Source: Escherichia phage OSYSP. Taken from it: a DNA stretch of 64,000 nucleotides. The DNA lies in sequence record MF402939, one strand, 5' to 3'. A program made the translations under genes and the position numbers. This document shows positions 5,749 to 41,048 of this stretch, one piece after another. Position 1 is the first letter of the stretch, and every line of letters begins with the position of its first letter. Below the pieces are notes generated by a model. The model did no database searches. It was given only the letters and a program-made list of their open reading frames with translations, and was not told the DNA's origin.

Positions 5749-6057
5749 ATGAGCGAACAGGTAAATCAAAACTATGAAGGACACGTTGATGACCAGTCCA
5801 TCATACTTTGGGAGAAGGAGGGGGAACAAGTAAGATTAACAGTATCTGAATTTCGTGGGAATCTATACATGGGTATTCGTTACTGGCTTCTTGATATTAA
5901 TGATGAGTGGTTTCCAACGAAATCTGGCTTCTCTTTTCCTTACACCCTAGAAACAACATCACAGCTTTTCTATGCGTTTACACAGATTCTTAGCGAATCT
6001 GAGGTTTTACATGAAGTACAGAAACGAGCTGAAGAACTCAAAGCCAAGAATGCCTAG
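5749..6057 (+). CDS. Hypothetical protein (102 aa)
   Basis: ORF track. Confidence 0.5.
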   Translation: MSEQVNQNYEGHVDDQSIILWEKEGEQVRLTVSEFRGNLYMGIRYWLLDINDEWFPTKSGFSFPYTLETTSQLFYAFTQILSESEVLHEVQKRAEELKAKNA

Positions 6058-27364: not shown

Positions 27365-30198
27365 TCCACAGACTGTTCTCCATCATCCCCTTCTGCCCTA
27401 ATACGAAAATACAATTTTCTATTTATACCTAGAGCACCGCTGTTCTGGAGAGCAAAGTCTGCCTTATTATATGTTAATAAATAGTCATAAGTATACTGAT
27501 TTTCAATACGTACACTTCTTAACATCCTATTTTGTGAATCGTGTATTTCAAGGGTATAAAATATACTCTCTATTATATCTTCTTCAGGTATTCTATCCCA
27601 GGCTAGTTTCACATCTGGGCCAACAAACTCAGTTACATCTCCAGAAGCAGTATTAGTTACCCTAAAATTAGATACTACACTAAGGTTTTTAGCAGAGTTA
27701 AGTTCTATAGACAGAGTCACCGGGGAACTTCTTCTACCATTAATATCTACTGCCCTTATCTCAAATATAGCCAGACCTGCTGGTTCCCCAATTATTTCTT
27801 GGACCATACGTTCGTTAGGATTGGTCTCTAACTGTTGTATTATGTAAGGTTCGGCATGGCCTGAGTGCACAATAGAGTAGTAAACTACATTATTGGTTAG
27901 ACTCGGAAGCCAGGATAACTCACCATTTTTACCTATAGAGCCTACTAAACCGCCAGGAGTAGGAGTATATTTAAAGTCTCTAGGAGGAAGGACATTGTTA
28001 CTAATATCAGGAATATCATTACCGCTATTATCAACCTGCTCAGAGTTGATGAATACATCCTCTCCATACTCCTGTAAGGTAACATTTATCTTACCCTCTC
28101 TAGAGTTTTCAACCTCATCAACTAGGAAATACTTTTTGTTCCACCCGTAACGGTCATACGTGAATGCAATAGCATCATTGGGTTCAATCCCTATGAACTG
28201 GTATGGTAATGAGAAAGAAAGTGTTCTTGAGTATCTGGATTTCTTAAGTTCTCTATCCGCAAAACTTCTTGCAGTATAGTAGTTAGTAATATTAGCAAAA
28301 GATAGTTGTAATTTTTTATCTAGGTTCTTGTCCTGTTCCTTATACTTGGAATTATAGAATGTAATAGAATTAGTTTTCCAGCTAAGGGCGGGATCTACGA
28401 TAGATGCTTGAACTGAGTTGAATTTATTTCTACCAGTAGTATCTGATAGCTCCAAATCACCGTAAGTATCTAGAAAATTAATCTCTAAGGGAGTATTAGA
28501 GTATTTTTCTACAGTAACCCTATACTGACCAGATAAATTGTTAATAGCCCCACCATAGGACTCTAACAAACCTTGCACATTTTTAAATACTGATTCAGAT
28601 GTATCCAAAATAGTATTCATTTGTACTATTTGTCTATTTTCTGCTAGTGGATCAGTCCACCCAACGTATCTCCAATATGGCTGCCAAGATACCTGATAGG
28701 ATTCATCTATAATATCTAAAATAGCTGCCTCCTGTATTAATTGCTGAAGAGGGAACTGATCAATGGTAATATTAGCGCCATATCTATCAGAGGTTAAGTA
28801 ATCAAGTGTTTGCCAAATACCATTTAAACTAGTACTATTAGCAGTTACTCTACCATCAGAATGATAGACTTTTACTTTTTTACCTTGAATTTCAGCACTA
28901 ACTTCTGGAATCTCAGTCCTATTTTCATTAATAGTGAAGCGCACCACTGCGTATGCAGTATCTAGTAGCTTATATCTAGCATCCCAGTACTCCGGCCCAT
29001 TGCCATTCATATTCTGAAGGTAGAATCCACGTTCTTTAGCTATATCTACTAGTACTTCAGAGGCTGTTTGATCAGATTTTCCGTGATAAGTCCAAATCCT
29101 TATGTCACCATTTCCATCATTATACTTATACTCTTGACCATGGACGGATGGACTACTAGAAGAGGTTCCAGATGCTATCCTCTGCATTGTATCTCCTGCT
29201 ATTTTTTTAGTACCAAAGCAGGTTCTAGCGGAGCTATCATTAGCATCTACGCAGATCATAGGATTATCACCGAAGGAGAAATCAAGAAAACCATCAATCT
29301 CCCCCTCAGCAAAGGCGTATACGACATAAACTATGTTGGGATTGTGTAGTTCTGTATCAGCAAAAATAGGTATTCCAGGAATTTTTTGAACCCCATAAAC
29401 CACCGGTATGTATTTAGCAGCAAGGTTAAAATCTATATCCACTTCCTTAGTGACAGTTTCATAGTATTTTTTAAGGCTGTAGCTTCTAGATAAACCAAAT
29501 AATTTTTTCTTTGATTTTAGCTTGTATCTTTCTTCTTGAACCTGATATTTTGCTAGGATAGAGATACTTTTATTAGAGTGGAAGAAGCCGTAGTCTTCTT
29601 GATACTCTGGTCTTTTAGCACCATTAGATGGTACTAACTGTCCAGCTACAACTTCAAGCCCCCTATGGGAAGCGTCATCAGTATATCTACCATTAACTCT
29701 ATCAAAGTCATAGAATTGGTTAGAACAATTCCAGGTAATTGTAGAGGTTCCTACTCCAGAGGTACTAATGTTATCTTTAATACCCCCTCCAGTAATCCTC
29801 CCCCTAAAATATAGTAAAGGACCATTTGTATCTGGGTCTACTGGCAGAATAGAACCATCTTCAGTAATAATTGCTTGATGAATTGATACGGTTCTATCTA
29901 AGAAGGATACACCATTTTGTACTAGTTTTAGTACTTCATCCTGAGCTGTACCAGTAATAGTAAAAGATAGACTACCAATAGATAAATCTCTATTTTGTTT
30001 ATGTGAGCTAATAGACTTAACTTTACCCGCCTGGTATAAGATGCCATTATATAGTACATCCCTAAAATAATCAGTTAAATAAATAAAAGCAGTACTAGTA
30101 CCAGTAGAGCCAGGTAACTCTAGAGAAATTAGACTAGCAGTTTTTATTCTGCTATTATTTTTTAAGTAGTTTCTAGCACTATCTAGTATTTTTTTCAT
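27349..30198 (-). CDS. Baseplate hub / tail tip protein (pb3-like, 949 aa)
   Basis: Length and position match the T5-like baseplate hub. Confidence 0.65.
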   Translation of the reverse strand: MKKILDSARNYLKNNSRIKTASLISLELPGSTGTSTAFIYLTDYFRDVLYNGILYQAGKVKSISSHKQNRDLSIGSLSFTITGTAQDEVLKLVQNGVSFLDRTVSIHQAIITEDGSILPVDPDTNGPLLYFRGRITGGGIKDNISTSGVGTSTITWNCSNQFYDFDRVNGRYTDDASHRGLEVVAGQLVPSNGAKRPEYQEDYGFFHSNKSISILAKYQVQEERYKLKSKKKLFGLSRSYSLKKYYETVTKEVDIDFNLAAKYIPVVYGVQKIPGIPIFADTELHNPNIVYVVYAFAEGEIDGFLDFSFGDNPMICVDANDSSARTCFGTKKIAGDTMQRIASGTSSSSPSVHGQEYKYNDGNGDIRIWTYHGKSDQTASEVLVDIAKERGFYLQNMNGNGPEYWDARYKLLDTAYAVVRFTINENRTEIPEVSAEIQGKKVKVYHSDGRVTANSTSLNGIWQTLDYLTSDRYGANITIDQFPLQQLIQEAAILDIIDESYQVSWQPYWRYVGWTDPLAENRQIVQMNTILDTSESVFKNVQGLLESYGGAINNLSGQYRVTVEKYSNTPLEINFLDTYGDLELSDTTGRNKFNSVQASIVDPALSWKTNSITFYNSKYKEQDKNLDKKLQLSFANITNYYTARSFADRELKKSRYSRTLSFSLPYQFIGIEPNDAIAFTYDRYGWNKKYFLVDEVENSREGKINVTLQEYGEDVFINSEQVDNSGNDIPDISNNVLPPRDFKYTPTPGGLVGSIGKNGELSWLPSLTNNVVYYSIVHSGHAEPYIIQQLETNPNERMVQEIIGEPAGLAIFEIRAVDINGRRSSPVTLSIELNSAKNLSVVSNFRVTNTASGDVTEFVGPDVKLAWDRIPEEDIIESIFYTLEIHDSQNRMLRSVRIENQYTYDYLLTYNKADFALQNSGALGINRKLYFRIRAEGDDGEQSVEWASI

Positions 30199-30809
30199 AA
30201 ACTTTCCCGTAAATTTAATGAGATGCCGGAATATGTTCCGTTATTATTTAATGTAGATCCGAAAGCATCACCATTCATGAGTTTTGTTCTAAACAGTATC
30301 CCATTAAATACTGGTTTTTCAGCTCCAGTAGTCGTTACAAATAAATCAGGGTATACGTTAATAGACCATGAATTACCAGATCTATTAAATGATGTTATTT
30401 TATAAACTTTTGGGTGATTGGATAATTTAAATAAATCACCTGGTTTAGGGATGCCGGTAAGAACACCTTTTGTATCCATAGTAATATTGGAACCTTTTTG
30501 TCCTGCTGGTATATTTACTAAGTTAGTATTGCCCCTAACCCTAAAAGCCTCATACTGAGGTAATATAACATCAATGTAGCCTCCTGTCCTCTTATACTCT
30601 AGAATAAAGGAATCTAGAACACTATATTCATCAGGAAACAATTCTGGGTAAGAAATATTTATACCCCAGTACTGAGCAGATACCTTAACTTCGTTAACTT
30701 TACCATTAGGTAACTCATCACGAATTACTGGGTCATTATCAATCAGGTTAACACTTTCGAATCCTAATCCTGAAAGTTCTGGATTCGTGTATGGGTCTGG
30801 TAATCTCAT
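30195..30809 (-). CDS. Distal tail protein (Dit, pb9-like, 204 aa)
   Basis: Size and position immediately downstream of the tape measure gene. Confidence 0.65.
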   Translation of the reverse strand: MRLPDPYTNPELSGLGFESVNLIDNDPVIRDELPNGKVNEVKVSAQYWGINISYPELFPDEYSVLDSFILEYKRTGGYIDVILPQYEAFRVRGNTNLVNIPAGQKGSNITMDTKGVLTGIPKPGDLFKLSNHPKVYKITSFNRSGNSWSINVYPDLFVTTTGAEKPVFNGILFRTKLMNGDAFGSTLNNNGTYSGISLNLRESL

Positions 30810-30887
30810 AGTTAATTTCTCCTCTTAGATACAATTATTATAATAGTATTAGAAAATTTTATCAAGAAATTTTTATTTTTCCATATA

Positions 30888-30913
30888 GAAAAGGAGGACT
30901 CAAAGTCCTCCTC
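30888..30913 (-). terminator. Hairpin terminator after the tape measure gene (GGAGGAC ... GTCCTCC + T-run), followed by a TATGGAAAAATAAAAA element
   Basis: Read from the minus strand. Confidence 0.5.
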
Positions 30914-30918
30914 CAGTT

Positions 30919-33900
30919 TTAAGAATTTCCTAGTGTTTTTAGGCTAGCACCATTCTCATTCAGAGCTAGTTCTACTGCATCCCTCAGAGCACCGCTATTA
31001 CTAGAGGCGAACTCTCTAAAACTAGCAGCATCCATAGCACTAATATTCAGGATGATAGGTCTTCCTGAGATTGAATTAGAGGAATTTTTTAACTCATCAT
31101 TAGGTGTAGCTTTCATAGGAATCATAGGTGTAATTACTTCTGTACCATGTTCTCCCATCTGGTAGCTAACCCCTGGGTACATATTACCACCTTCGGCACG
31201 AGGCACAAATGAATTAGCATTACCAATACCTTGATCACCACGTATATAGGATAGTTCCCCAGCGTTAGCAGACATAGATACATCAATGTTCTTCTGACGC
31301 TCTCCAAGAGTTAAATAACTAGTAGTATCCGCTCCAGAATCTGCAATACTTGACATACTAGAGGCAGAGGATGCCTGCGCTAATGCCAGAGCACCTGCTA
31401 ATCCTGCCGCTACCATCAGAGGGATAGAGAACGGGTATGGTACAGCTGTTGCTGCCTGCATAACTGCTACTGCAGTTTGGATGATAATCTGCTTCTTAGC
31501 TGCATCTTGTTGAATCTTCAGCTTTTCAGCTTCTAGCTTCTTCAATTTAGCTTTAGATGCTTCTGATTTACCATCACGTTTCTGCTCCGCTGCGATAGCT
31601 GCATCAATAGCACTAACCTGCTGACTAGTACTGTATTGAATCATAGAAGCCACAGTTTGCATACCAGAAGCAATCAAGGAAGTAGTATCTAGAGATCCCT
31701 GAGAGAACTGAATCATAGCATTAGTTAAGTTACCCATACTTTGTGCTACTGCAGTTGCTTCAGAATTTAGCTCAGATAGCTTAGAGATTGCTTGGTCATA
31801 AGAAGCCATTCTATTTTGCATATCAGCAAAATCTTTATCTTCTCCAGATAATCCCGTTGTAGGAGTGTACACAGCACCTACAGAGGATCCTACCTGTTGT
31901 TGCATTTGAGCATTACGTTGCGCCGTTAAAGCAGACATTTGAGCCCTTGTCTTAGCTATTTCAGCATTCCAGCGCATTTGCTCGTTAGCATTACCTTTGG
32001 TAAGTTCTTTCATCTGAGTATAAAAATCTAACTGCATTTCCATTTTTTGCATTTCCCCTGCCAGAGGGAACATGGAAGTTAGAGTATTTTCAAAGGCTTC
32101 TTGCCTTTTACTGGTCATTTCAGCTTGCTGATCCTGACGGAATTTCCATATTTCACGTTCAATTTGAGCTTGAGAACGTCTAGACTGTTCAGCCTCTTTC
32201 TGTTTATCAGCCTGTTTTGTATACCATTCGTACTTCTCTTTTTCAATGGTCAATTCAAGATTTAACTGTGCTAGACGATACTGAGTATCTGTCATAGTAC
32301 GGTTATTTAAGAGAGCTATCTCACGATCTACACCAAGAATTTTATCTGTGTAATCCTTGACCTTCTTCTGAGCTTCCATACCCTGATTAGTAAGTTTAAG
32401 TTTCTCCAGCTGAATTTTTTCAATTTCTTTCTCAACAGCTTTATTTCCCTGGTTTGTTTGAAGAACACGGCGTAAAGCAGCTTCTTGCTCTTCTAACTGT
32501 TGGAGTTCTAAACGTCTACCAGCTTCCTGAGCCTTTTCCTTATCCTTAGTTTGATTATACACATCAGCTATTTTCTGTTGAACTGCTAACTGATTTTTAG
32601 TTTCATTACCAGTTAGTTTAACATACTCAGATAGAGCCTGAGATGCAGTTTTCATTTCAGACAGGGTGTTATAACCCAGGTTAAGGTTTTTAACATATTC
32701 ATCGGCACTCTTACCGGTACCTAAGGATAGAGATTCTATATTTTTTATAGCATCTGCCAAAGTAGCACTAGTTTTAGCAGCAGTATCTGTATTATGAGCA
32801 ACGTTCTGTATATCATTAGCTAAGTCACTAGCCGTTTTCTTAGTCTGATTGTACGCTTTCTGCTGCTCAGTTAGTCCTTTTAATACAGTAGAGTTAAAAT
32901 CGTATACAGCATCAGGATCAGTAGTATCTCTCTGTAGATTAATTTGCTTCTGAAACTCTGGACTAGCCTTTGCAGCAGCGGCACCAGCAGCTTGATACGC
33001 TGATTTCCAAGCATTGAGATTCTCTGTAGAATCCTCTACTTCCTTACCAAGTCTAGTTACTTGTAGACCCATAGCTGCAGTTTCTGCTACAAATTGCTTA
33101 TTGGCCTCCGAAGCACCTGCTGCTGCAAGACCAACAGGAATACCTTCACCAACTTGACGTATAGCTAATTTTGTATAGAAATCTGCTTGTTCCATTCGTT
33201 TATCAAACTCAGATTTTAGCTTATTACGCTTATCAAGAGATTCCTTATACATATCTAGAGCTTTATTATAGCCTTCTTCAGAAGCAGCTAAACTTAAAGC
33301 AACAGCACCAACGTTGGTAGGGTCTATCTGTCTATTAGTTTTTTCTTGGGCCCTAGCTGCTTCAGCAGATATAGAAGCCTGAGATGTATAAAATACTGTG
33401 TTGATAGCATCAATTACTGGCCCTAAATACTTAGCAGCAGCTTGTTGTATTTTTCTTAGTGCAGCATCTGCATTAGCAGCAAATTGCTCCCACGGAGTTG
33501 CACGTAGTACTTCATCTAGGTAGCCAAAACGCTTAGTAGATTCAGCAATTACCGCGTTAGCGTATGCTTGTTGCTTCTGGAAAGTGGTAAGACTATTAAC
33601 ATTATATGTTATACCTGTGTTTGCAGCATTTAACTGTTTAACATAATCAGCGTATGCATCATTAAGACGGATGGTGACACCCAGCTCATCCAGAAGTTCG
33701 ATTTCTTGTTTAGATACGCCCTTAATTACACGGTTAAGTGCATCAGTCATATCAACGCCAAGAACAGCAGCCGCACGACGAGCTACTAAACCAAATTTAT
33801 TAAGTTGTTCGGCATCAAATCCATAAGCAGATGCTGAAGATGCCTGTCTCATTGCTTCCTCAAAAGAAATAGCATATCCAGCAGCTTCTTGTAGTGATCT

Positions 33901-34602
33901 AGCAAGGGTCTGAACAGGAGTACCTGTCTGAGTACCTACTATAACACCAAATTTTTCTAGACGATTTAGCTGATCACCTAGTTTAAGTTGTTCAAATGCT
34001 GATTGCAAAACGAAGATGTTGGAAGCAAGAGCTGCGTACATAATAGGTAGACTACCACCGATCTTAGCCATTGCCGCAAAATCACGAGTTGCACCACGTG
34101 CTGAACCAGAAGTATTACCAATAGCTCTAGAAGCTCTACCAGCGGCACCAGCAGTATCATTAAAACCCCTAGCTGTGCCACCTAATGCTCTATTAGTATC
34201 ATATAATCTATCCTGGACTTTTTCTGTTGCAGCTGCAACATCATTACCCATTGTTTTAACAGATCTAGAAACTCCATCGAATCCAATTTCTAGTTTATCT
34301 GTTACTTCAATAAGCTGGATAGCTAGGTAATCTAGTTTATCACCAATATCATTAATAGATTTGGTGATACCAGCCATACCCCTACTAGCTTGCATTTTAG
34401 TAAGACTTTTTGCTGCTCTGTCTGCTGCCCTCTCAATGGAATAAAGAGTTTTGGGCATTTTACCTAACTGCTCATTTGTTAGTTCGGAAGCAGCAGCAGC
34501 ATTTTCCAACGCATCAGATACGTTTTCAATAGACTTTGCAGTACGAGTTGCCCCCTTCTGTTTAACGTCTATTAGTAATTCTCGTATTAGCTTATCAGTC
34601 AT
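30919..34602 (-). CDS. Tail tape measure protein (pb2-like, 1227 aa)
   Basis: Length; long coiled-coil regions; position between chaperone genes and Dit. Confidence 0.85.
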   Translation of the reverse strand: MTDKLIRELLIDVKQKGATRTAKSIENVSDALENAAAASELTNEQLGKMPKTLYSIERAADRAAKSLTKMQASRGMAGITKSINDIGDKLDYLAIQLIEVTDKLEIGFDGVSRSVKTMGNDVAAATEKVQDRLYDTNRALGGTARGFNDTAGAAGRASRAIGNTSGSARGATRDFAAMAKIGGSLPIMYAALASNIFVLQSAFEQLKLGDQLNRLEKFGVIVGTQTGTPVQTLARSLQEAAGYAISFEEAMRQASSASAYGFDAEQLNKFGLVARRAAAVLGVDMTDALNRVIKGVSKQEIELLDELGVTIRLNDAYADYVKQLNAANTGITYNVNSLTTFQKQQAYANAVIAESTKRFGYLDEVLRATPWEQFAANADAALRKIQQAAAKYLGPVIDAINTVFYTSQASISAEAARAQEKTNRQIDPTNVGAVALSLAASEEGYNKALDMYKESLDKRNKLKSEFDKRMEQADFYTKLAIRQVGEGIPVGLAAAGASEANKQFVAETAAMGLQVTRLGKEVEDSTENLNAWKSAYQAAGAAAAKASPEFQKQINLQRDTTDPDAVYDFNSTVLKGLTEQQKAYNQTKKTASDLANDIQNVAHNTDTAAKTSATLADAIKNIESLSLGTGKSADEYVKNLNLGYNTLSEMKTASQALSEYVKLTGNETKNQLAVQQKIADVYNQTKDKEKAQEAGRRLELQQLEEQEAALRRVLQTNQGNKAVEKEIEKIQLEKLKLTNQGMEAQKKVKDYTDKILGVDREIALLNNRTMTDTQYRLAQLNLELTIEKEKYEWYTKQADKQKEAEQSRRSQAQIEREIWKFRQDQQAEMTSKRQEAFENTLTSMFPLAGEMQKMEMQLDFYTQMKELTKGNANEQMRWNAEIAKTRAQMSALTAQRNAQMQQQVGSSVGAVYTPTTGLSGEDKDFADMQNRMASYDQAISKLSELNSEATAVAQSMGNLTNAMIQFSQGSLDTTSLIASGMQTVASMIQYSTSQQVSAIDAAIAAEQKRDGKSEASKAKLKKLEAEKLKIQQDAAKKQIIIQTAVAVMQAATAVPYPFSIPLMVAAGLAGALALAQASSASSMSSIADSGADTTSYLTLGERQKNIDVSMSANAGELSYIRGDQGIGNANSFVPRAEGGNMYPGVSYQMGEHGTEVITPMIPMKATPNDELKNSSNSISGRPIILNISAMDAASFREFASSNSGALRDAVELALNENGASLKTLGNS

Positions 34603-34614
34603 GTTTTATTTTTC

Positions 34615-34652
34615 CCAATAAAAAAGGCTCTGGGCAAATCACCCAGAGCCAA
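34615..34652 (-). terminator. Hairpin plus T-run (GGCTCTGGG ... CCCAGAGCC, TTTTTT) followed by ATTGGGAAAAATAAAAC and the tape measure start codon
   Basis: Read from the minus strand. Confidence 0.5.
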
Positions 34653-34685
34653 GCCTCATCGTGGAACGCCCATTGGAGGAAACTT

Positions 34686-35054
34686 TTACCGTGCACGAGA
34701 TCTAGCATGTGGCTTAACGTTAGGAATCCTTCCGTTTTGCGGTTTATGCTTCTCAGCACGCTTACGTGCAGCATCTACAGCTTTAGCATCAAATATATTG
34801 ATAATGTGTAGAACAAATTCTTTTTCTATAGGATCAGTAATCCCATAAATATCAAATAAAACACCTAATGCAGCCTTATCCTTACCTATAAAAATAGGAA
34901 AGTCACCCGGTATGAAACAGTCAATCAGACTGTTATAAATATTCATACTAATAGATACAATAGGTGGAAAATCTTCGAGTTCAACAGGCATAGCCTTTGG
35001 ATCAGGTTCTATACCCATTGACTCGCAAAGTATTAAATATTGTTGTTTAGTCAT
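34686..35054 (-). CDS. Tail assembly chaperone, downstream ORF (possible frameshift partner)
   Basis: Position between tail tube genes and tape measure; its frame is open upstream across the preceding stop. Confidence 0.45.
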   Translation of the reverse strand: MTKQQYLILCESMGIEPDPKAMPVELEDFPPIVSISMNIYNSLIDCFIPGDFPIFIGKDKAALGVLFDIYGITDPIEKEFVLHIINIFDAKAVDAARKRAEKHKPQNGRIPNVKPHARSRAR

Positions 35055-35115
35055 TTTAGATGCTGAGCTTTTAATACATTTGTCTGCAAAATCAGCAACA
35101 GCATCTAGGAGTTCT

Positions 35116-35520
35116 TTACGCTTTTGGGCTACGAAAAGTGTCTAAGTGGAACACTGTCTGGTTGATCCAAGAATCAAACGCAGCAGAGTTCTGCATGAGC
35201 ATTACAGCGTTATCGCGGCTAAAAGGAACTTCAGTAGCAGGATCAGCATCTGTTTCAATCAGCATCAGTTTTTCAACGTCACCAACAGTTAAGCCAGTCC
35301 AGCCTTTAATAGCTGCGTCAACAAAGGCTTCAATGAACTTATCGTCATCCTGTACCTGAATCAAAGTACCGTTAACCCATTCATCGCGTTTAGCAGAGGA
35401 AATAACACGTTTAGAAGTAGCACGAGACATGTAGTTAAGTTCTAATTTAAAGTTCGGCATACCTGGGTAGGAAAGAGTAATAGTACGAGTATCAAGAGTA
35501 ATATCTTTTAAATTAATCAT
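35116..35520 (-). CDS. Tail assembly chaperone (134 aa)
   Basis: Position; acidic small protein upstream of tape measure. Confidence 0.45.
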   Translation of the reverse strand: MINLKDITLDTRTITLSYPGMPNFKLELNYMSRATSKRVISSAKRDEWVNGTLIQVQDDDKFIEAFVDAAIKGWTGLTVGDVEKLMLIETDADPATEVPFSRDNAVMLMQNSAAFDSWINQTVFHLDTFRSPKA

Positions 35521-36416
35521 TTTTTAATTTCTCCAAAGAAATCTATTCTCACTGGGTCTGAAGAAGCAGTAGGTATAATATCCCACTCAACTCTATACAC
35601 ATCTGAGAACTCTAGGCGTTTTGTAATACGTGCTGAAGGAAAATCTATAGAAATATTATTATTTCTTATCGTTAAAGGTACATCTATCTCCGGTTCTATA
35701 TTATAAACCATATCTCCTGCAAAACGTTTTAAGTAGTACAGAGAAATGGTTGCCGAAGCATTCATTTCAGTTACATAGGCTCTTTTATTATTATAAATTT
35801 TATTTATATCAAAAACACTCTTATCCTCTCTCCAGGAGCACTGCTGCTGGAAAGATAAAGAGGCAGAAATAAGACCGGGTAAGATGCTGCCATTAGTAGA
35901 AGCTATTACTGGGCTGTAAGACATTACTTCACCCTGTATAATAGAAGCTGCTTCTCTATACGTAGATACTTCTGAGAATTTCCCAGACTCAATACCAACA
36001 TTAAGAATTGGTATGTTCTTATCTAAAGAAAAATCTACCGTAGATACATAACAGTTTTCAAAATATACACAGTTATTATCTTTGTTTACTATATAGATAT
36101 TGAACATAATAGGTTCAATATTACTACTATATAGTGGGAGTAAGAAAGTATTACCTTTTCTATCAAAACCTAACCATTCAAAGAAGTTAGCTTCAGTAAG
36201 AGTATTACTAAAATTTACTGCTAGAGAGATAGAAGAGGGGGTTTGAGCATTTATAATAGAGTCTGCATAGTTAGTTCTACGATGAACAGTCCTACGAAGA
36301 GTCTTGAATTCCTCGTAGGAAGTCTGTATATCATAGTTTGATAGGGCATCAAAATGAAATGCCCTACCATCATACTCAACTATAACTTTTGACTCTCTCA
36401 TTAGAGAGTAGTACAT
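35517..36416 (-). CDS. Tail protein (p140-like, 299 aa)
   Basis: Size and synteny. Confidence 0.5.
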   Translation of the reverse strand: MYYSLMRESKVIVEYDGRAFHFDALSNYDIQTSYEEFKTLRRTVHRRTNYADSIINAQTPSSISLAVNFSNTLTEANFFEWLGFDRKGNTFLLPLYSSNIEPIMFNIYIVNKDNNCVYFENCYVSTVDFSLDKNIPILNVGIESGKFSEVSTYREAASIIQGEVMSYSPVIASTNGSILPGLISASLSFQQQCSWREDKSVFDINKIYNNKRAYVTEMNASATISLYYLKRFAGDMVYNIEPEIDVPLTIRNNNISIDFPSARITKRLEFSDVYRVEWDIIPTASSDPVRIDFFGEIKK

Positions 36417-36420
36417 TTAA

Positions 36421-37818
36421 TTAGCCACCTGCTGTTACAGTAATCTGTTTAGTACCTTTAACTCCAGAACCATCTTTAGCAGTAGCTTCTACAGTTACTT
36501 CACCAGTTTTAGTGGTGTCCGCAGTTAATAGGCCAGATTCTGGATCAATTGTAGCTGCATCACCGGCAGTGATAGCCCAAGTAACTTCCTTATTCTTTGC
36601 GGAAGAAGGAGTAACTTCAACACTCATTTGAAGAGTAGCCGAGTTATTTACTGTAGTAGCATCACCAGCAGATTTAACAGTAATTGCGGTTACAGCATTA
36701 GTAGCACCATCACCATTAACAATCAAGTTATTAATAGTTGTTTTGGTATATTTACTAGAGAAGCCTAAGTAACCTTCGTCACCAGCATCCAGATCAGATG
36801 GAATAGCTTTAAACTCTACTGAAGTACCAAGTACATCATCAGTTTCAATAGTAGGAATATTAACGTGTGCTTGTTTAGCTACCAGAATAGCCGCAGGACG
36901 TTCTTCATCGTATTCACCACCAAGTACTAGAGCAATTTCGAAGCGGTTAACTACCTTCAGAGTTTTGATAAGATCTTTATACAGCTCCATAGAACCAAGA
37001 GACTTATCATTCAGATAAGCAGTTAATGAACCAGTTAATTCAAAAGCACCAGTAAATGAACCAATTGGAATATTAACACGAGACATAATATTCGGGGTTA
37101 GGTACGTGATGTTGTTATTAATAGTGAAAGTACCACCAGTAATAGGAATATCATAAGACTTATTGGTATCCATGTCTTTGATCTTCAAGATCGTTAGTTT
37201 GTTCTTAATATAAGAACCCTGGATAGTCATATAAGTTTCATCATCAATACCTAACTCATCTGGGTCAAATGGTTGCGCATCCAGAGGAATGAGCTGATTA
37301 CCATTACCAGACCAAGTTACACGGCCAATATCTTCGATATCAACGTTAACTTCTGCCTGATTAATCTGACAGGAATCGATATAACTCCATGCTTTATCAG
37401 TCAGAATATAAATATGTAACATTGCTAACTCATGGTAGGAGTTATCTTTGAAGTTAACCATGAAGTTAGCTTCGTTATTGTGTGCCCCTGTATTACCTTC
37501 TAAGTTAATAGCTTTACCACTAGAAAGTGCATGCCATAACATATAGTCAGGAACGATTTGCTTCTGATCATCTTTATTGATATAGGGCAGGATGTAAGTA
37601 GAGAAACTCCACTCAGCCGCGTTTAAAGAGTCATTAAAACGTTTAGAACCACGAGTTGGACGCGGACCAGCTTCATTAACAGTAATATCTGTTGAGTTAC
37701 TGTCCTGACCCCAAGAAATATCATCCTGAACTAGAATCTCTTGCGTGTTGGTCTTATTATGACCAGTCTTAACCGTAGACACGAAGATTCGAGTATTACG
37801 TAATAGTTGTAAAGACAT
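36421..37818 (-). CDS. Major tail tube protein (pb6-like, 465 aa) with C-terminal Ig-like domain
   Basis: Length; C-terminal Ig-like (Big_2-type) segment; position. Confidence 0.75.
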   Translation of the reverse strand: MSLQLLRNTRIFVSTVKTGHNKTNTQEILVQDDISWGQDSNSTDITVNEAGPRPTRGSKRFNDSLNAAEWSFSTYILPYINKDDQKQIVPDYMLWHALSSGKAINLEGNTGAHNNEANFMVNFKDNSYHELAMLHIYILTDKAWSYIDSCQINQAEVNVDIEDIGRVTWSGNGNQLIPLDAQPFDPDELGIDDETYMTIQGSYIKNKLTILKIKDMDTNKSYDIPITGGTFTINNNITYLTPNIMSRVNIPIGSFTGAFELTGSLTAYLNDKSLGSMELYKDLIKTLKVVNRFEIALVLGGEYDEERPAAILVAKQAHVNIPTIETDDVLGTSVEFKAIPSDLDAGDEGYLGFSSKYTKTTINNLIVNGDGATNAVTAITVKSAGDATTVNNSATLQMSVEVTPSSAKNKEVTWAITAGDAATIDPESGLLTADTTKTGEVTVEATAKDGSGVKGTKQITVTAGG

Positions 37819-37844
37819 TTAATTATTTTCTCCTAATCTGTAAC

Positions 37845-38330
37845 TTATCTGCGAAGTGACCTACGTGGAGGCTGATACCTCACTGTTACATTTATTTCTG
37901 CTAAACCATATGGGGCCAGTAGACCCTCATCTGTACTAACTGATGTAATGCTCATATCAGTCGCCTCACATGGGAAGGTCGATCCATTAGGTTTACTAAC
38001 AGTATATTCTAAATTTCCACCTGTGTCAATAACGGTTTTTATATCCGCTACGAGTTTTTCAAGTTGCTCTTGAATGTCTGTTTTCTCTTTATCATACACC
38101 AGGATAGGAAGTTCTAAAAACATCCATTGTTGACCTGAGGGAAGATACTGCCCAGTTTCAGTTCCGATATGAACTGCAACATAAGGAAACTCTCGTATCT
38201 CCTCAAACTTATAAGTTTGACGTGAGACGTTTCCATACAAGTTATTAAAATATTCATCTGGTTGAGAGCCATCCATTTGTTTGGCTATTCGGTCAACCAG
38301 AGCTTGTGCTATACTTGTTCTGTGATCCAT
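37845..38330 (-). CDS. Tail terminator / completion protein (161 aa)
   Basis: Synteny between connector genes and tail tube. Confidence 0.45.
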   Translation of the reverse strand: MDHRTSIAQALVDRIAKQMDGSQPDEYFNNLYGNVSRQTYKFEEIREFPYVAVHIGTETGQYLPSGQQWMFLELPILVYDKEKTDIQEQLEKLVADIKTVIDTGGNLEYTVSKPNGSTFPCEATDMSITSVSTDEGLLAPYGLAEINVTVRYQPPRRSLRR

Positions 38331-38333
38331 TTA

Positions 38334-39101
38334 TTAGGTTCCTTGATTAACCTTAATTTTGTACCTGGAGTGAATTAAGTCTCTTGCAGCTTTAGCTATC
38401 GCCTCTCCAATTAGTCTTTGGGGGTTTCTAGCACCTGGGTAGGGTCGTAATGACAATCTTCGATATGTAGATACTGCAGGATTAAATACTGAATATGGAC
38501 GTACCATATAATTATATGTAACATTTAATTCAGGAGAACCTTTGCTAGTTCCAGCATCTCTAAGCATAACATCTTTAACTTTTAGAGAATTTGCAAAACG
38601 ACCTGTTCTAAATTTAAGTGGAGCTCCTGCTTTTTTCATATCCTTTATTAAGTATTCTTTAGCAACCAACTCCAGAATAACCTTCATATTACTATTTGAT
38701 ACAAAACGACCAGAGGCACCTGTTACTGCACCAGAATATCCATCTTCTACGTCTCTAGGATCCCCAAAGTTTACTTGAACTCTACCAGTAGAACGTTTTT
38801 TACCTACAGAGGATTTTTTACCAGCGGTTGCTTGAATAAGACTTTCTAAAGCACCTAAGTCTCCTGTTAGATCTAAGCTAGAAGAAACTGCTTTTAGAAT
38901 AGAAGCGGTCCTAACATTAAGGAGATCTTGGGATACAGGTTTTGAGAACTTAAAAGATACCTGAGCAACAGTACCATCCCTAGTAGGATCTTTTAGTCCT
39001 GTTTCAACAGAGTATACAACAGTATTCTTATTGTTCTCGGAACGCCCAACATTATCTAGCTGCTCCTTAATAATTTGTGTAGCTAAATCAGAAAGAGACA
39101 T
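38334..39101 (-). CDS. Head-tail connector / tail completion protein (255 aa)
   Basis: Synteny. Confidence 0.4.
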   Translation of the reverse strand: MSLSDLATQIIKEQLDNVGRSENNKNTVVYSVETGLKDPTRDGTVAQVSFKFSKPVSQDLLNVRTASILKAVSSSLDLTGDLGALESLIQATAGKKSSVGKKRSTGRVQVNFGDPRDVEDGYSGAVTGASGRFVSNSNMKVILELVAKEYLIKDMKKAGAPLKFRTGRFANSLKVKDVMLRDAGTSKGSPELNVTYNYMVRPYSVFNPAVSTYRRLSLRPYPGARNPQRLIGEAIAKAARDLIHSRYKIKVNQGT

Positions 39102-39613
39102 TATACTCTCCTGTAAACTTCAATAATAGTACGAATATGCTCTGGAATACCAGATTTAGTATTATTAAATGTAACCGTTTCCCCACCAATTGTTTTAGCT
39201 TGACGGTAATCCTGTTTATGCCAATGATCTACTAGCATACATGCTGCAAGTTTGAGATCCTCAGGAATTGGGTTAAATCCACCTTGTGTGTACTCTACAT
39301 CCATATAACCTTCTGGAGGACTAAATTTAAGAAGTATAACCCCATCAGAGTACAGCCTATATTGCTCAGGGTCTATCTCCTTATCATTAATAGTCATTTT
39401 GGTCACTGAAGTAGCCGAGGGAGAGCTTAAAAAGTATTTTTTACGAGTAGGTTTTGTATTGATTAACTGGTCTACCGCATCAGCATCATCCATACCTAAA
39501 AGGCTAGTAATCAGCGCATTGGCAGCAGTAATCATCATTTCTACTCCAGACTCTAGTTCAGGTCGTTTTAACCCGCCGTATAATCTATAGTCTTCAGCTG
39601 TGATTATTTGCAT
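39101..39613 (-). CDS. Head completion / head-tail adaptor protein (170 aa)
   Basis: Synteny directly downstream of the capsid gene. Confidence 0.4.
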   Translation of the reverse strand: MQIITAEDYRLYGGLKRPELESGVEMMITAANALITSLLGMDDADAVDQLINTKPTRKKYFLSSPSATSVTKMTINDKEIDPEQYRLYSDGVILLKFSPPEGYMDVEYTQGGFNPIPEDLKLAACMLVDHWHKQDYRQAKTIGGETVTFNNTKSGIPEHIRTIIEVYRRV

Positions 39614-39625
39614 TTATTTTTCCCA

Positions 39626-39650
39626 ATAAAAAAGAGAGCCGAAGCTCTCC
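39626..39650 (-). terminator. Terminator after the capsid gene (GAGAGC-TTCG-GCTCTC + TTTTTT) followed by ATTGGGAAAAATAA and a start codon
   Basis: Read from the minus strand. Confidence 0.6.
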
Positions 39651-39671
39651 TTATCGGCTGAAAAGCCTGTA

Positions 39672-41048
39672 TTAAGATGCAGCGTAAGCACCAGATACAA
39701 CGCCATTTGCAAAGTAACGTTGCAGGTTAACACGCTGAGTAACGTAGTATGCGTCACGCTGTTTACCAGCTTGGCGCTCACGTTCAACAGTAACAGCACG
39801 CTGGCGTGGCATTACGAAGTTATCTTTATAAACAATAACTGCGAACTCTGCGGAAGTAGCTTTAGCTGGGAAGTATTCTGAAACTACAACCGGCAGACCA
39901 TAAATACGACCAACCTGACCCTGCAGTTTAACAGCATCATTACCAACTTGGGCAACATCCTGCCATTCTTCATCTTCCAGCAGATCGTAGTAAGCATCCA
40001 TAGATACAATCAGTACCAGTTTGGACAGTTTCAGACCATGGCGGCCCAGTTTACGACGCAGTTTAGAGATAGTTTTAGCAGTTACCAGTACGGAACCATC
40101 AGCTTTAGCTTCAGTAATAACTTTAGCACTATCTTCACTAGCAAGAGTCAGCAGACCTTTCGGCTTACCGGAACCATCACCAGTCATGAAGGCTTCTTCA
40201 ATAGAAACAGCGTGTGCTTCAATCAGACGCTTACGAAGCAGTGGCAGCAGGGAGAAGATTGCATCTTCTTCAGTTTCATCAGTAATGAAGGATTTAGCAG
40301 CCAGTTTGTAAGTACTGAAGTGGATCTCTTTAAGAGCTCCTTTAACTTCCTCACCAGTAGTTGTATCGGTACCATAAGTAGAAGCAGCAACCCAAGTAGC
40401 TTTACCAGCATCCGGTTCAACCAGCATAGTAAGAATCTTACTGGACATCGGCAGTTCTTCGAACAGTGCGCCAACTACCAGCTCTTTCTGCAGGTCACGG
40501 ATAATACGCTGAGAGAAAATAGTTTCATAGCTTTCACTAGAAACTTCTACAGAAGAAGACTGATTCACTGCTTTCAGGTGTCTCTGACCATGCTCGGTCT
40601 CGAATACGCCTTTTTCCATTACATAAGATAACAGAACCAGTTTTTCAACTTCATCTTCAAAGTTTTCCTGAGTACCGTACAGTGCTTTAGCAACACTATC
40701 ACCAACGAAGGAACGACCTTCACGAGCTGTTAGCAGAGATTTGATTTCGTCTTGAAGACCGACAATAGTTTCCTGTTGTTTTTCTACAGTTTGTGCAAAC
40801 AGTTCTGCGCTCTTCTTAGATTTCTCATCCAGAGACTTAACCAGATCCAGAGCCTCTTCCAGACGCTTACGGTCTTCACCAACAGCTTTAGAAACCAGGT
40901 CATTCATACGAGCCAGTTCTTTTTCTTCCTGCTCTTTACGCATACGTTCAGCTTCCTGAGCTTTCTGAGCAGCGGTCAGACCTTCCAGAGATTTAGCCAG
41001 ATCACCCAGACCAAGTTCTTCTTTCAGCTTATTAATATCAATAGTCAT
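39672..41048 (-). CDS. Major capsid protein (pb8-like, 458 aa) with N-terminal coiled-coil scaffold (delta) domain
   Basis: Length; charged coiled-coil N-terminal ~150 aa; downstream of prohead protease. Confidence 0.85.
   Translation of the reverse strand: MTIDINKLKEELGLGDLAKSLEGLTAAQKAQEAERMRKEQEEKELARMNDLVSKAVGEDRKRLEEALDLVKSLDEKSKKSAELFAQTVEKQQETIVGLQDEIKSLLTAREGRSFVGDSVAKALYGTQENFEDEVEKLVLLSYVMEKGVFETEHGQRHLKAVNQSSSVEVSSESYETIFSQRIIRDLQKELVVGALFEELPMSSKILTMLVEPDAGKATWVAASTYGTDTTTGEEVKGALKEIHFSTYKLAAKSFITDETEEDAIFSLLPLLRKRLIEAHAVSIEEAFMTGDGSGKPKGLLTLASEDSAKVITEAKADGSVLVTAKTISKLRRKLGRHGLKLSKLVLIVSMDAYYDLLEDEEWQDVAQVGNDAVKLQGQVGRIYGLPVVVSEYFPAKATSAEFAVIVYKDNFVMPRQRAVTVERERQAGKQRDAYYVTQRVNLQRYFANGVVSGAYAAS

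What the first reader, a model, noticed from the sequence alone, without database searches (positions are those of the whole stretch)
30873..39640. Recurring late-region module: hairpin, T-run, then T(A/T)TGG(G/A)AAAAATAAA before a start codon
Read on the minus strand, three sites show a terminator-like hairpin followed by TTTTTTATTGGGAAAAATAA(AAC)ATG (before the tape measure gene at 34602 and before the head completion gene at 39613) or TTTTCTATATGGAAAAATAAAAA (after the tape measure gene, 30873-30890). The shared sequence sits where a late promoter or reinitiation signal would be, and the start codons that follow lack a classical Shine-Dalgarno.
Basis: seen in the sequence. Interest (0 to 1): 0.55.

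Follow-up and report, generated by a model that had tools for sequence, protein, structure and literature searches.

The report
T5-type terminators abutting weak ribosome sites
The recurring "module" in this T5-like phage is ordinary and largely already annotated in T5: three transcription terminators, two followed at once by the weak ribosome-binding site of the next gene and one followed by the known late promoter P-G25.

Summary
GGAAAAATAAA occurs exactly three times in the window (0.13 expected), always on the minus strand just after a stable hairpin plus T-run.

The window is a T5-like phage, and T5 GenBank records already annotate rho-independent terminators at all three orthologous places.

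- **Site 1 (after the tape-measure gene):** the motif is the A-rich UP-like "-43" block of late promoter P-G25 (TTGATA-17-TATAAT, then a strong SD). T5 promoters of every temporal class carry this block.
- **Sites 2 and 3:** there is no promoter core, and the ATG lies 7-10 nt after the motif. The shared 21-mer is a generic terminator tail (TTTTTTATT), then a degenerate Shine-Dalgarno (GGGA, -4.2 kcal/mol), then an A-rich spacer.
- **Across ten Demerecviridae lineages:** the same slot always holds a G-block 4-9 nt before the ATG. It becomes a canonical GGAGG, AGGAG or GAGG in Vibrio phi3, Pectobacterium My1 and one IMG/VR contig.

Most likely function: leaky terminators plus weak ribosome sites lower the dose of the head-completion and tape-measure proteins relative to the capsid and tail-tube proteins.

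The late-promoter reading holds only at site 1. Nothing here is new in kind. The unusually strong conservation of the whole junctions, including an anti-SD-like block before the site-2 hairpin, remains unexplained.

The parts
39631..39652 (-). Site 3 intrinsic terminator after the major capsid gene: AAGGAGAGC-TTCG-GCTCTCTTT. The T-run TTTTTTATT occupies 39633-39625.
   Evidence: dG -12.3, z -4.0. T5 orthologue annotated as a terminator at 101563-101586. The stem is kept in 9 lineages.
39611..39624 (-). Site 3 ribosome-binding region of the head-completion gene: GGGA (39624-39621), spacer AAAATAA, ATG (39613-39611).
   Evidence: SD pairing -4.2 kcal/mol with 6-nt spacing. The slot holds GGAGG, GGAG or AGAGG in phi3, My1 and L033. 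Pfam HCP profile positions 1-169 of 169 align from this ATG.
39655..39666 (-). Small conserved hairpin GGC-TTTTCA-GCC between the capsid-gene stop codon and the terminator. Function unknown.
   Evidence: The GGC/GCC stem is invariant and the loop varies in sequence and length in 8 lineages. There is no covariation, so structure is not proven.
34626..34650 (-). Site 2 intrinsic terminator after the second tail-assembly-chaperone ORF: GGCTCTGGGT-GATTT-GCCCAGAGCC. The T-run TTTTTTATT occupies 34625-34617.
   Evidence: dG -20.3, z -6.0. T5 terminator annotated at 96553-96587. Compensatory GC-to-AU changes occur in the stem across genera.
34600..34616 (-). Site 2 ribosome-binding region of the tape-measure gene: GGGA (34616-34613), spacer AAAATAAAAC, ATG (34602-34600).
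   Evidence: SD pairing -4.2 kcal/mol with 9-nt spacing. TTGGGAAAAATAAA is fixed, and only the 0-3 nt next to the ATG vary in 26 relatives. Canonical SDs fill the slot in My1, phi3 and KKP_3711.
34653..34683 (-). Conserved non-coding block upstream of the site-2 hairpin: AAGTTTCCTCCAATGGGCGTTCCACGATGAGG. It contains an anti-SD-like CCTCC and a GAGG. Function unknown.
   Evidence: Kept in 8 lineages with 1-nt indels between sub-blocks, so it is not coding. It is unique in the window and has no Rfam match.
30891..30913 (-). Site 1 intrinsic terminator after the tape-measure gene: GAGGAGGACT-TTG-AGTCCTCCTT, followed by TTTTCTATAT.
   Evidence: dG -15.5, z -3.4. T5 terminator annotated at 92087-92113. 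A hairpin is present at this junction in all 9 lineages.
30866..30885 (-). Site 1 motif TATGGAAAAATAAAAATTTC, which is the A-rich UP-like ('-43') block of the P-G25 orthologue. It lies at about -55 to -36 relative to the predicted start.
   Evidence: It lies directly upstream of the -35 hexamer. The same kind of block is present in early and late T5 promoters. The -43 AAAAATT block is described for T5-like promoters in PMC3326045.
30837..30865 (-). Core of the late promoter orthologous to T5 P-G25: TTGATA (30865-30860), 17-nt spacer, TATAAT (30842-30837). The predicted start is near 30830.
   Evidence: 11 of 12 matches. T5 feature 'promoter P-G 25'. Late kinetics by primer extension (PMC7472727). 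A -35/-10 pair is kept at this junction in 9 lineages.
30807..30826 (-). Strong SD AAGAGGAGA (30826-30818) and the ATG (30809) of the distal tail protein (pb9) gene.
   Evidence: SD pairing -9.1 kcal/mol. Pfam DTP-pb9 domains.
38001..38029 (-). Orthologue of T5 late promoter P-J5 (TTGACA-17-TATACT), inside the tail-terminator gene. It is the only other promoter-like site between sites 3 and 2.
   Evidence: 11 of 12 matches. T5 feature P-J5. BF23 record D12824 marks an mRNA start at the orthologous place.

Best explanation
The late operon of this T5-like phage is punctuated by three intrinsic (rho-independent) terminators. Their downstream tails look alike for two different reasons.

**After the major capsid gene (site 3) and after the tail-assembly-chaperone genes (site 2):** the terminator's U-tract (UUUUUUAUU) runs straight into the translation-initiation region of the next gene. 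That region is a degenerate Shine-Dalgarno (GGGA), a 7-10 nt A-rich unstructured spacer, and AUG. No promoter lies between either terminator and the next gene. The head-completion and tape-measure genes must therefore be transcribed by read-through. The leaky terminator and the weak ribosome site together keep these low-copy virion proteins far below the capsid and tail-tube proteins encoded upstream.

**After the tape-measure gene (site 1):** the terminator is followed by the known sigma-70 late promoter P-G25. The look-alike sequence GGAAAAATAAAAATTTC is that promoter's A-rich UP-like '-43' block. A strong SD then restarts high expression of the baseplate genes.

**Shown here:** the hairpins, the promoter core, the SD strengths, orthology to annotated T5 elements, and the substitution pattern across genera.

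**Inferred:** that termination is partial, and that the purpose is dosage control.
For: **Identity.** The window is a Tequintavirus relative, and 455 phage records match it. T5 records annotate terminators at all three junctions and P-G25 at site 1. P-G25 and P-J5 transcripts accumulate late (PMC7472727).

**Terminators.**
- The stems are stable, each is followed by a T-run, and each is kept in 9 lineages, with compensatory changes at site 2.
- The GAGAGC-TTCG-GCTCTC-TTTTTTATT form recurs in unrelated viral contigs with unrelated downstream sequence. The T-run half of the shared 21-mer is therefore generic.

**RBS slot.**
- In 10 lineages the 9-20 nt between TTTTT(T)ATT and the ATG always contain a G-block 4-9 nt from the ATG.
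- The G-block is GGGA, GGGT or AGGT (-3.3 to -4.3 kcal/mol) in enterobacterial phages.
- It is GGAG or GAGG in My1 (-5.9 and -6.9), AGAGG in L033 (-7.1), and GGAGG or AGGAG in Vibrio phi3 (-10.6 and -7.3).
- Only the bases next to the ATG vary among close relatives.
- The ATG at 39613 opens a full-length head-completion protein. The pb2 N-terminus is recorded as sequenced in T5.
- T5 itself has lost the site-2 motif to a gene insertion, and pb2 there uses a different weak AGGA site overlapping the inserted gene's stop codon.

**No promoter at sites 2 and 3.** The best -35/-10 pair reaches 8 of 12 or fewer, against 11 of 12 at site 1.

**Site 1.** The A-rich block sits at about -55 to -36 and resembles the block in early promoters. 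The -43 AAAAATT block is a described feature of T5-like promoters. Terminator, promoter and strong SD are kept in 9 lineages.

**General layout.** All 6 start codons in the window that lie within 25 nt of a terminator have weak SDs (-1.7 to -5.4). Those 36 nt or more away have strong SDs (-8.7 to -10.9).
Against: - No transcript-end or translation data exist for these sites in the papers I could search. Termination efficiency, read-through and the dosage rationale are therefore inferred.
- A plain weak RBS does not obviously explain the exact 12-nt identity GGGAAAAATAAA between two sites 5 kb apart.
- It also does not explain the near-zero diversity of the whole junctions: pi is 0.0014 and 0.021, against 0.13-0.28 at flanking synonymous sites.
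- Nor does it explain the conserved blocks upstream of the hairpins.
- The resemblance of the site-1 UP-like block to the RBS spacers may reflect common descent rather than coincidence of A-rich sequence. I could not tell these apart.
Confidence: 0.8

Rival explanations
1. Sites 2 and 3 are late promoters, as the reader suggested and as Wang et al. predicted for site 3 (T5P40). The A-rich motif would be their upstream element, and transcription would start inside or just before the following gene.
For: - AY587007 annotates 'putative late promoter T5P40' across site 3.
- The motif is nearly identical to the upstream block of the real promoter P-G25.
Against: - No -35/-10 pair better than 8 of 12 lies within 110 nt either side of either ATG, against 11 of 12 at site 1.
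- The ATG lies 7-10 nt after the motif, and the Pfam HCP profile aligns from position 1 at that ATG. T5P40 therefore depends on a truncated ORF137.
- The st0 T5 record places no promoter there.
- In distant genera the slot holds SD sequences rather than A-tracts.
- Known T5 late promoters are ordinary sigma-70 promoters (PMC7472727).
Confidence: 0.04
2. The junctions are dedicated post-transcriptional control elements. The conserved blocks (the GGC-loop-GCC hairpin at site 3, the CCUCC...GGGCGUUCC...GAGG block at site 2, and the UUGGGAAAAAUAAA tail) would bind a phage or host factor, act as a processing or stand-by site, or otherwise set head-completion and tape-measure synthesis beyond what a terminator and weak SD would do.
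For: - The whole intergenic regions are about 10-100 times less diverse than flanking synonymous sites, and less diverse than first and second codon positions.
- The site-2 upstream block persists in genera whose neighbouring proteins are 30-40% identical, with indels that rule out coding.
- The identical 12-mer sits at two sites.
Against: - There is no covariation for any structure beyond the terminator stems and no Rfam match.
- T5 tolerates complete replacement of the site-2 tail by an inserted gene.
- Distant lineages replace GGGAAAAATAA with unrelated SD and spacer sequences.
Confidence: 0.12
3. The similarity is historical. A terminator-plus-tail cassette was duplicated or homogenised by recombination among the three junctions, as with the promoter-stem-loop cassettes of T4-type phages. 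The shared sequence would have no function of its own beyond what any A/T-rich spacer provides.
For: - The tails are identical while the stems differ.
- Short similarity also exists upstream of the hairpins: CCGATAAGG at site 3 and CGATGAGG at site 2.
- T5 has other pairs of terminator-promoter junctions with near-identical tails and different stems, for example at 18607 and 55694.
- Within each lineage the two RBS tails resemble each other.
Against: - The junctions are syntenic across the whole family and do not flank variable genes.
- Strong purifying selection acts on every position.
- Substitutions preserve a G-block at SD distance, which indicates function.
- This rival explains origin rather than role, and it is compatible with the main explanation.
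Confidence: 0.1
4. In read-through RNA the terminator stem extends so that upstream pyrimidines pair with the U-tract and GGGAA. This would sequester the SD and give structure-based translational attenuation.
For: Minimum-free-energy folds of both junctions pair UUCC or UUUUC with GGAA or GAAAA, and CGAUGAGG or CCGAUAA with UUUUAUUG or UUAUUGG. The z-scores are -3.7 and -2.9.
Against: - The comparative fold keeps only the terminator stem at site 3.
- At site 2 it keeps the stem plus an invariant, G-U-rich extension that does not include the GGGA block.
- There are no compensatory changes in the extension.
Confidence: 0.05

Closest known systems
Annotated regulatory features of phage T5 (AY543070, AY587007, AY692264): terminators after pb8, after T5.142 and after pb2, and late promoter P-G25 (T5P39)
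   Same: The elements are orthologous, sit at the same gene junctions and have nearly the same sequence. P-G25 is an experimentally observed late promoter.
   Different: The window keeps the ancestral site-2 tail. T5 has lost it through insertion of gene T5.141 directly after TTTTTTATT. None of the records comments on the shared tail sequence.
T-phi terminator of phage T7, a leaky intrinsic terminator directly after the major capsid gene 10 (from established knowledge; its incomplete efficiency is also stated in the abstract of PMC9157156)
   Same: A stem-loop terminator is placed right after the most abundant structural gene, and downstream low-copy structural genes are expressed by read-through.
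   Different: T7 uses its own RNA polymerase. Here the host sigma-70 polymerase transcribes, and partial termination is inferred rather than measured.
UP element / A-tract '-43 region' of strong sigma-70 promoters (rrnB P1; T5 promoters such as P-N25)
   Same: At site 1 the motif is an A-tract block at about -55 to -36, directly upstream of a near-consensus -35/-10 pair. The same kind of block occurs in other T5 promoters.
   Different: At sites 2 and 3 the same words have no core promoter behind them, so they cannot act as an UP element.
Weak or non-canonical Shine-Dalgarno sites with A/U-rich unstructured leaders (ribosomal protein S1-assisted initiation; from established knowledge)
   Same: A GGGA block lies 6-9 nt from the AUG, followed by an A-rich spacer with little predicted structure.
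   Different: No measurement of initiation exists here. The sequence is conserved far more strictly than a generic weak site would need.
PeSL (promoter-early stem-loop) mobile regulatory cassettes of T4-type phages (from memory: Arbiol et al. 2010; not checked in the library)
   Same: A recurring unit made of a terminator stem-loop followed by a conserved tail or promoter, with stems that differ between copies.
   Different: PeSLs flank variable genes and mediate shuffling. These junctions are fixed and syntenic throughout Demerecviridae.

Membership tests
Intrinsic (rho-independent) terminator | G+C-rich stem-loop more stable than shuffled sequence | tested here: met
   dG is -15.5, -20.3 and -12.3 kcal/mol, with z-scores of -3.4, -6.0 and -4.0. 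None of 200 shuffles folded as well.
Intrinsic (rho-independent) terminator | Run of T (U) immediately 3' of the stem on the transcribed strand | tested here: met
   TTTTTTATT at sites 2 and 3. A weaker TTTTCTATAT at site 1.
Intrinsic (rho-independent) terminator | Stem maintained in relatives, with compensatory changes | tested here: met
   Site 2 shows GC-to-AU and UA-to-CG double changes. The site 3 stem is nearly invariant, with 2 pairs changed on both sides. Site 1 has different stems at the same junction in 9 lineages.
Intrinsic (rho-independent) terminator | RNA 3' ends formed at the U-tract in vivo or in vitro, and their efficiency | not testable with these tools
   No Term-seq or in vitro termination data were found for T5-like phages.
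Sigma-70 promoter of the T5 type (with A-rich -43/UP block) | -35 and -10 hexamers close to consensus, 16-18 nt apart | tested here: met
   Met at site 1 only: TTGATA-17-TATAAT, 11 of 12 matches. It is kept in 9 lineages.
Sigma-70 promoter of the T5 type (with A-rich -43/UP block) | The same hexamer pair downstream of the motif at sites 2 and 3 | tested here: not met
   The best pairs reach 7.5-8 of 12 near the ATGs. The ATG follows the motif by 7-10 nt.
Sigma-70 promoter of the T5 type (with A-rich -43/UP block) | Transcription start observed experimentally | not testable with these tools
   For the T5 orthologue P-G25, primer extension is reported with late kinetics (PMC7472727). Nothing is reported for sites 2 and 3.
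Shine-Dalgarno ribosome-binding site | Purine block complementary to the 16S 3' end, 4-9 nt upstream of the start codon | tested here: met
   UGGGAA pairs at -4.2 kcal/mol with spacing of 6 and 9 nt. This is weak compared with -6 to -11.6 for most late genes.
Shine-Dalgarno ribosome-binding site | Orthologous slot occupied by recognisable SD sequences in relatives | tested here: met
   GGAGG or AGGAG in phi3, GGAG or GAGG in My1, AGAGG in L033, AGGTGA in KKP_3711.
Shine-Dalgarno ribosome-binding site | The start codon is the real one | tested here: met
   The HCP Pfam profile (positions 1-169 of 169) aligns to residues 2-170. tblastn covers residues 1-170 even in Vibrio phages. The pb2 N-terminus is recorded as sequenced in T5.
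T4-type late promoter (TATAAATA at -10, no -35) | TATAAATA box about 6-7 nt upstream of a start that precedes the gene | tested here: not met
   The motif reads AAAAATAAA, not TATAAATA, and it abuts the ATG. T5 late genes use sigma-70 promoters.
Mobile promoter/stem-loop cassette (PeSL-like) | Copies flank variable, non-syntenic genes | tested here: not met
   All three junctions lie between the same core structural genes in 9 lineages of 4 or more subfamilies or genera.
Described structured RNA family (Rfam) | Match to a covariance model | tested here: not met
   No match with E-value up to 1 in 30500-40000 on either strand.

The most novel reading that the evidence does not exclude
The near-invariant junctions are more than a terminator plus a weak ribosome site. 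The family-wide non-coding block with an anti-SD-like CCUCC and a GAGG upstream of the site-2 hairpin, the GGC-loop-GCC hairpin at site 3, and the shared UUGGGAAAAAUAAA tail would together form a dedicated RNA operator. It might bind a factor, act as a stand-by site, or be a processing site. It would set tape-measure and head-completion protein dosage in Demerecviridae.
Probability: 0.12. Interest if true: 0.5.

Novelty: already known. Interest (0 to 1): 0.14.

Why it matters
It matters little as a discovery. The terminators and the promoter are already annotated in T5, and the shared tail reduces to a U-tract plus a weak ribosome site.

The result is useful in three practical ways:
- It shows that the old 'T5P40' late-promoter prediction, and the truncated ORF137 that goes with it, are probably wrong.
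- It gives a clean comparative picture of how T5-like phages may set the ratios of structural proteins: a leaky terminator plus a weak SD before low-copy proteins, and a terminator plus promoter plus strong SD where high expression restarts.
- It flags two strongly conserved non-coding blocks that nobody seems to have described.

Tried and rejected
1. **SD sequestration by an extended terminator stem.** Single-sequence folds suggested it, but comparative folding does not support it.
2. **A small upstream ORF at site 2.** It would start at the TTG after GAGGC, run through the hairpin and end at the TGA overlapping the tape-measure ATG. It is in frame in the window and in S147. It is broken by 1-nt length variants in close relatives and is absent in IME260 and Kamaji, so I rejected it.
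3. **The conserved site-2 upstream block as coding sequence.** I rejected this because of 1-nt indels between sub-blocks and variable distance from the stop codon.
4. **Rfam.** No match.
5. **T4-like late promoter box.** The sequence does not fit.
6. **Motif as a late-specific promoter signature.** I rejected this because early promoters carry the same A-rich block, while late P-J5 and the promoter upstream of pb5 do not carry the GG...ATAAA form.
7. **A mis-specified anchor pattern.** My first anchor pattern for the site-3 hairpin was one T short. It missed most T5-like contigs, but it usefully showed that the hairpin plus TTTTTTATT occurs in unrelated phages. The corrected scan is.
8. **Literature.** I found no transcript-end mapping of T5 late mRNAs. 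The BF23 gene 24/25 paper (PMC197117) is not held, and the promoter alignment figure of PMC7472727 is an image only.
9. **Conservation among close relatives.** On its own it cannot separate the motif from its flanks, because the whole junction is invariant. The informative comparisons were the distant genera.

Full report
**What is there.**
- Site 3: hairpin 39652-39631, then TTTTTTATTGGGAAAAATAA, then the ATG at 39613.
- Site 2: hairpin 34650-34626, then TTTTTTATTGGGAAAAATAAAAC, then the ATG at 34602.
- Site 1: hairpin 30913-30891, then TTTTCTATATGGAAAAATAAAAA.

The hairpins are stable, with dG of -12.3, -20.3 and -15.5 kcal/mol and z-scores of -4.0, -6.0 and -3.4. The exact 11-mer GGAAAAATAAA occurs three times in the window, against 0.13 expected, and all three copies are at these places. 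The recurrence is therefore real.

**Where the window comes from.** The region matches 455 phage records at 80-95% identity, all T5-like Demerecviridae. Gene order and sizes match the T5 late operon. Pfam confirms the head-completion protein (39101-39613) and the distal tail protein pb9 (30195-30809).

**What is already annotated.**
- T5 record AY543070 carries 'putative rho-independent transcription terminator' features at the orthologues of all three hairpins. It carries 'promoter P-G 25' directly after the site-1 hairpin.
- AY587007 adds 'putative late promoter T5P39' (= P-G25) and a 'putative late promoter T5P40' across site 3. The latter goes with an ORF137 that starts 78 nt downstream of the ATG used here.
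- The st0 record AY692264 starts the gene at the same ATG as here and places no promoter there.
- Klimuk et al. observed P-G25 and P-J5 transcripts by primer extension from 30 min onward. They state that T5 late genes use strong sigma-70 promoters (PMC7472727).

**Site 1 is a terminator followed by a known promoter.**
- Downstream of the motif lie TTGATA (30865-30860), a 17-nt spacer and TATAAT (30842-30837). This is 11 of 12 matches and among the best three promoter-like sites in the 20-kb late region.
- A strong SD (AAGAGGAGA, -9.1 kcal/mol) and the ATG at 30809 follow.
- The motif occupies about -55 to -36, which is the position of an UP element.
- Aligning the annotated T5 promoters shows the same A-rich block in all temporal classes. 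Early P31B reads GAAAAATAAAAATTTTAGTTGCT, and late P-G25 reads GGAAAAATAAAAATTTCTTGATA.
- The AKFV33 genome paper describes the consensus for T5-like promoters as TTGCTw / TATAATA with an AT-rich -43 AAAAATT block (PMC3326045).
- The block is therefore not late-specific.
- The terminator, promoter and strong-SD arrangement at the tape-measure/distal-tail junction is present in all nine lineages examined, from Tequintavirus to Vibrio phage phi3.

**Sites 2 and 3 are terminators abutting ribosome-binding sites.**
- No -35/-10 pair better than 8 of 12 lies within 110 nt either side of either ATG.
- The ATG follows the motif by 7 nt (site 3) or 10 nt (site 2).
- The Pfam head-completion profile aligns over its whole length (positions 1-169 of 169) to the ORF opened by the ATG at 39613. 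tblastn aligns residues 1-170 even to Vibrio phages.
- That ATG is therefore the real start, and a promoter across or after it could not serve the gene.
- The T-run half of the shared 21-mer is generic. The hairpin GAGAGC-TTCG-GCTCTC followed by TTTTTTATT occurs in unrelated viral contigs with unrelated downstream sequence.

**Comparative evidence for the RBS reading.** I sampled relatives by protein homology rather than by motif and read both junctions in ten lineages. Every lineage has a hairpin, then TTTTT(T)ATT, then a short slot, then the ATG. The slot always contains a G-block 4-9 nt before the ATG, followed by an A/T-rich spacer.

| Lineage | Slot content |
|---|---|
| Tequintavirus, Epseptimavirus, Serratia Kamaji (HCP junction) | GGGAAAAATAA (Kamaji GGGAAAAATTC) |
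| Klebsiella IME260, Erwinia KEY, Kamaji (one junction each) | GGGTAAAAT(AA) |
| Enterobacter KKP_3711 and KEY (HCP junction) | ATGGGTACTAC / ATAGGTACATA |
| Pectobacterium My1 | TGGAGTAAAT and TGAGGTAATAAA |
| IMG/VR contig L033 | AGAGGTATATA |
| Vibrio phi3 | GGAGGTAATAAA and AGGAGAAAACTCATA |

- Predicted pairing with the 16S 3' end is -3.3 to -4.3 kcal/mol in the enterobacterial phages and -5.9 to -10.6 in My1, L033 and phi3.
- The distal-tail gene behind the promoter always has a strong SD, -9.1 to -10.8.
- Among 26 close relatives, TTGGGAAAAATAAA is fixed at site 2, and only the 0-3 bases next to the ATG vary.
- T5 provides a natural replacement test. An accessory gene (T5.141, with a CapR-homology domain and a treble-clef zinc finger) is inserted exactly after TTTTTTATT at site 2.
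- In T5, pb2 is preceded by ACAGGAAAACATTAG, and its ATG overlaps the inserted gene's stop codon.
- The specific motif is therefore dispensable for tape-measure expression.

**How it most likely works.**
- Between the site-3 terminator and the next promoter-like site (the P-J5 orthologue at 38029-38001) lie the head-completion and tail-completion genes. Between the site-2 terminator and the tape-measure ATG there is nothing.
- Both downstream genes must therefore be transcribed by read-through, so the terminators have to be leaky. This step is inferred.
- From established knowledge of the T5 virion, the capsid protein pb8 (hundreds of copies) and the tail-tube protein pb6 (about 120 copies) precede the terminators. 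The head-completion protein (a dodecamer) and the tape measure (a trimer) follow them.
- A partial terminator plus a weak SD is a simple way to set those ratios. It parallels the T7 T-phi terminator after gene 10.
- The layout is general in this phage. All six start codons within 25 nt of a terminator T-run have weak SDs (-1.7 to -5.4 kcal/mol). These are at 5749, 17076, 56416, 62697, 39613 and 34602.
- Starts 36 nt or more from a terminator have strong SDs (-8.7 to -10.9).

**What remains unexplained.**
- Among 24-26 close relatives, the whole junctions are far less diverse (pi 0.0014 and 0.021 per site) than flanking synonymous sites (0.13-0.28). They are also less diverse than first and second codon positions of most flanking genes.
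- Upstream of the site-2 hairpin, the roughly 30-nt block AAGTTTCCTCCAATGGGCGTTCCACGATGAGG persists across genera whose neighbouring proteins are 30-40% identical. It has 1-nt indels that exclude coding.
- That block contains an anti-SD-like CCTCC and a GAGG. It is unique in the window and matches no Rfam family.
- Upstream of the site-3 terminator, a small GGC-loop-GCC hairpin is kept with variable loops.
- Single-sequence folds suggested that these upstream segments pair with the U-tract and the GGGA block. Comparative folding supports only the terminator stems.
- The exact 12-nt identity of the two tails may reflect common descent or gene conversion. Within each lineage the two tails resemble each other. 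I could not separate this from shared constraint.

**Verdict.**
- The elements are orthologues of features already annotated in T5, so the finding is already known in kind and ordinary in mechanism.
- The residual interest lies in the unusually strict conservation of the junctions and the undescribed non-coding block before the tape-measure terminator.

Noticed in passing
window 34653-34683 (minus strand): A non-coding block of about 30 nt, AAGTTTCCTCCAATGGGCGTTCCACGATGAGG, lies between the chaperone stop codon and the site-2 terminator. It is conserved in 8 Demerecviridae lineages, including Klebsiella, Erwinia, Serratia, Pectobacterium and partly Vibrio phages. One-nt indels rule out coding. 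It contains an anti-SD-like CCTCC and a GAGG. It has no Rfam match and is unique in the window.
   Followed up: partly
window 39655-39666 (minus strand): A small GGC-TTTTCA-GCC hairpin lies between the capsid-gene stop codon and the site-3 terminator. The stem is invariant, and the loop differs in sequence and length in 8 lineages.
   Followed up: partly
window 34686-35054 and 35116-35520 (minus strand): The second tail-assembly-chaperone ORF has essentially no SD (-0.1 kcal/mol). Its frame stays open 31 codons upstream of its ATG and overlaps the end of the first chaperone ORF. It is in the +1 (or -2) frame relative to that ORF, and CCCAAAAG lies at the end of the first ORF. This looks like the usual chaperone frameshift product, but not a simple -1 shift.
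   Followed up: partly
L001 5376-6128 (T5 record AY543070, 95777-96529), relative to window 34603-34616: T5 carries an extra gene (T5.141, with a CapR-homology domain and a treble-clef zinc finger) inserted exactly after the TTTTTTATT of the site-2 terminator. The window and most relatives lack it. In T5 its stop codon overlaps the pb2 ATG.
   Followed up: partly
window start codons 5749, 17076, 56416 (+) and 62697, 39613, 34602 (-): Every start codon lying within 25 nt of a terminator T-run has a weak SD (-1.7 to -5.4 kcal/mol). Starts 36 nt or more from a terminator have strong SDs. The site at 5749 reads TTTGGGATATGTAAATG, which resembles the late-region tail TTGGGAAAAATAAATG.
   Followed up: partly
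L112 9952-10079 (T5 record AY587007, 101590-101679 and ORF137): Wang et al.'s 'putative late promoter T5P40' and the shortened ORF137 conflict with the full-length head-completion protein profile. The gene almost certainly starts at the ATG right after the terminator tail.
   Followed up: yes
T5 genome (L003/L004): terminators at 18607-18637 and 55694-55729: Two early-region terminator-promoter junctions have different stems but nearly identical tails (TTTTATTTTAYTTGCTTTCAGCTAAAAAT...TATAATA). Recurring terminator-plus-tail cassettes are therefore a general feature of the T5 genome.
   Followed up: no
L065-L081 (IMG/VR contigs): The terminator GAGAGC-TTCG-GCTCTC-TTTTTTATT is found word for word in unrelated viral contigs (8-245 kb) with unrelated flanks. 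This probably reflects convergence on a strong UUCG-tetraloop terminator.
   Followed up: no
window 23871-23896 and 23979-24004 (plus strand), inside the 969-aa minus-strand gene 21954-24863: The same 27-nt stretch, AGTCTGTGTGTCAGACTTTAATTTTTC, occurs twice 108 nt apart inside the large tail-fibre-like gene. It was picked up as terminator-like on the non-coding strand, and it is probably a repeat within the protein.
   Followed up: no
L021, L023, L028 (IMG/VR relatives), upstream of the site-3 hairpin: Some relatives carry an additional ORF between the capsid gene and the site-3 terminator. The terminator and tail are retained (as TTGGAAAAATAAATG or ATTATTAGGAAAAATAAATG).
   Followed up: no
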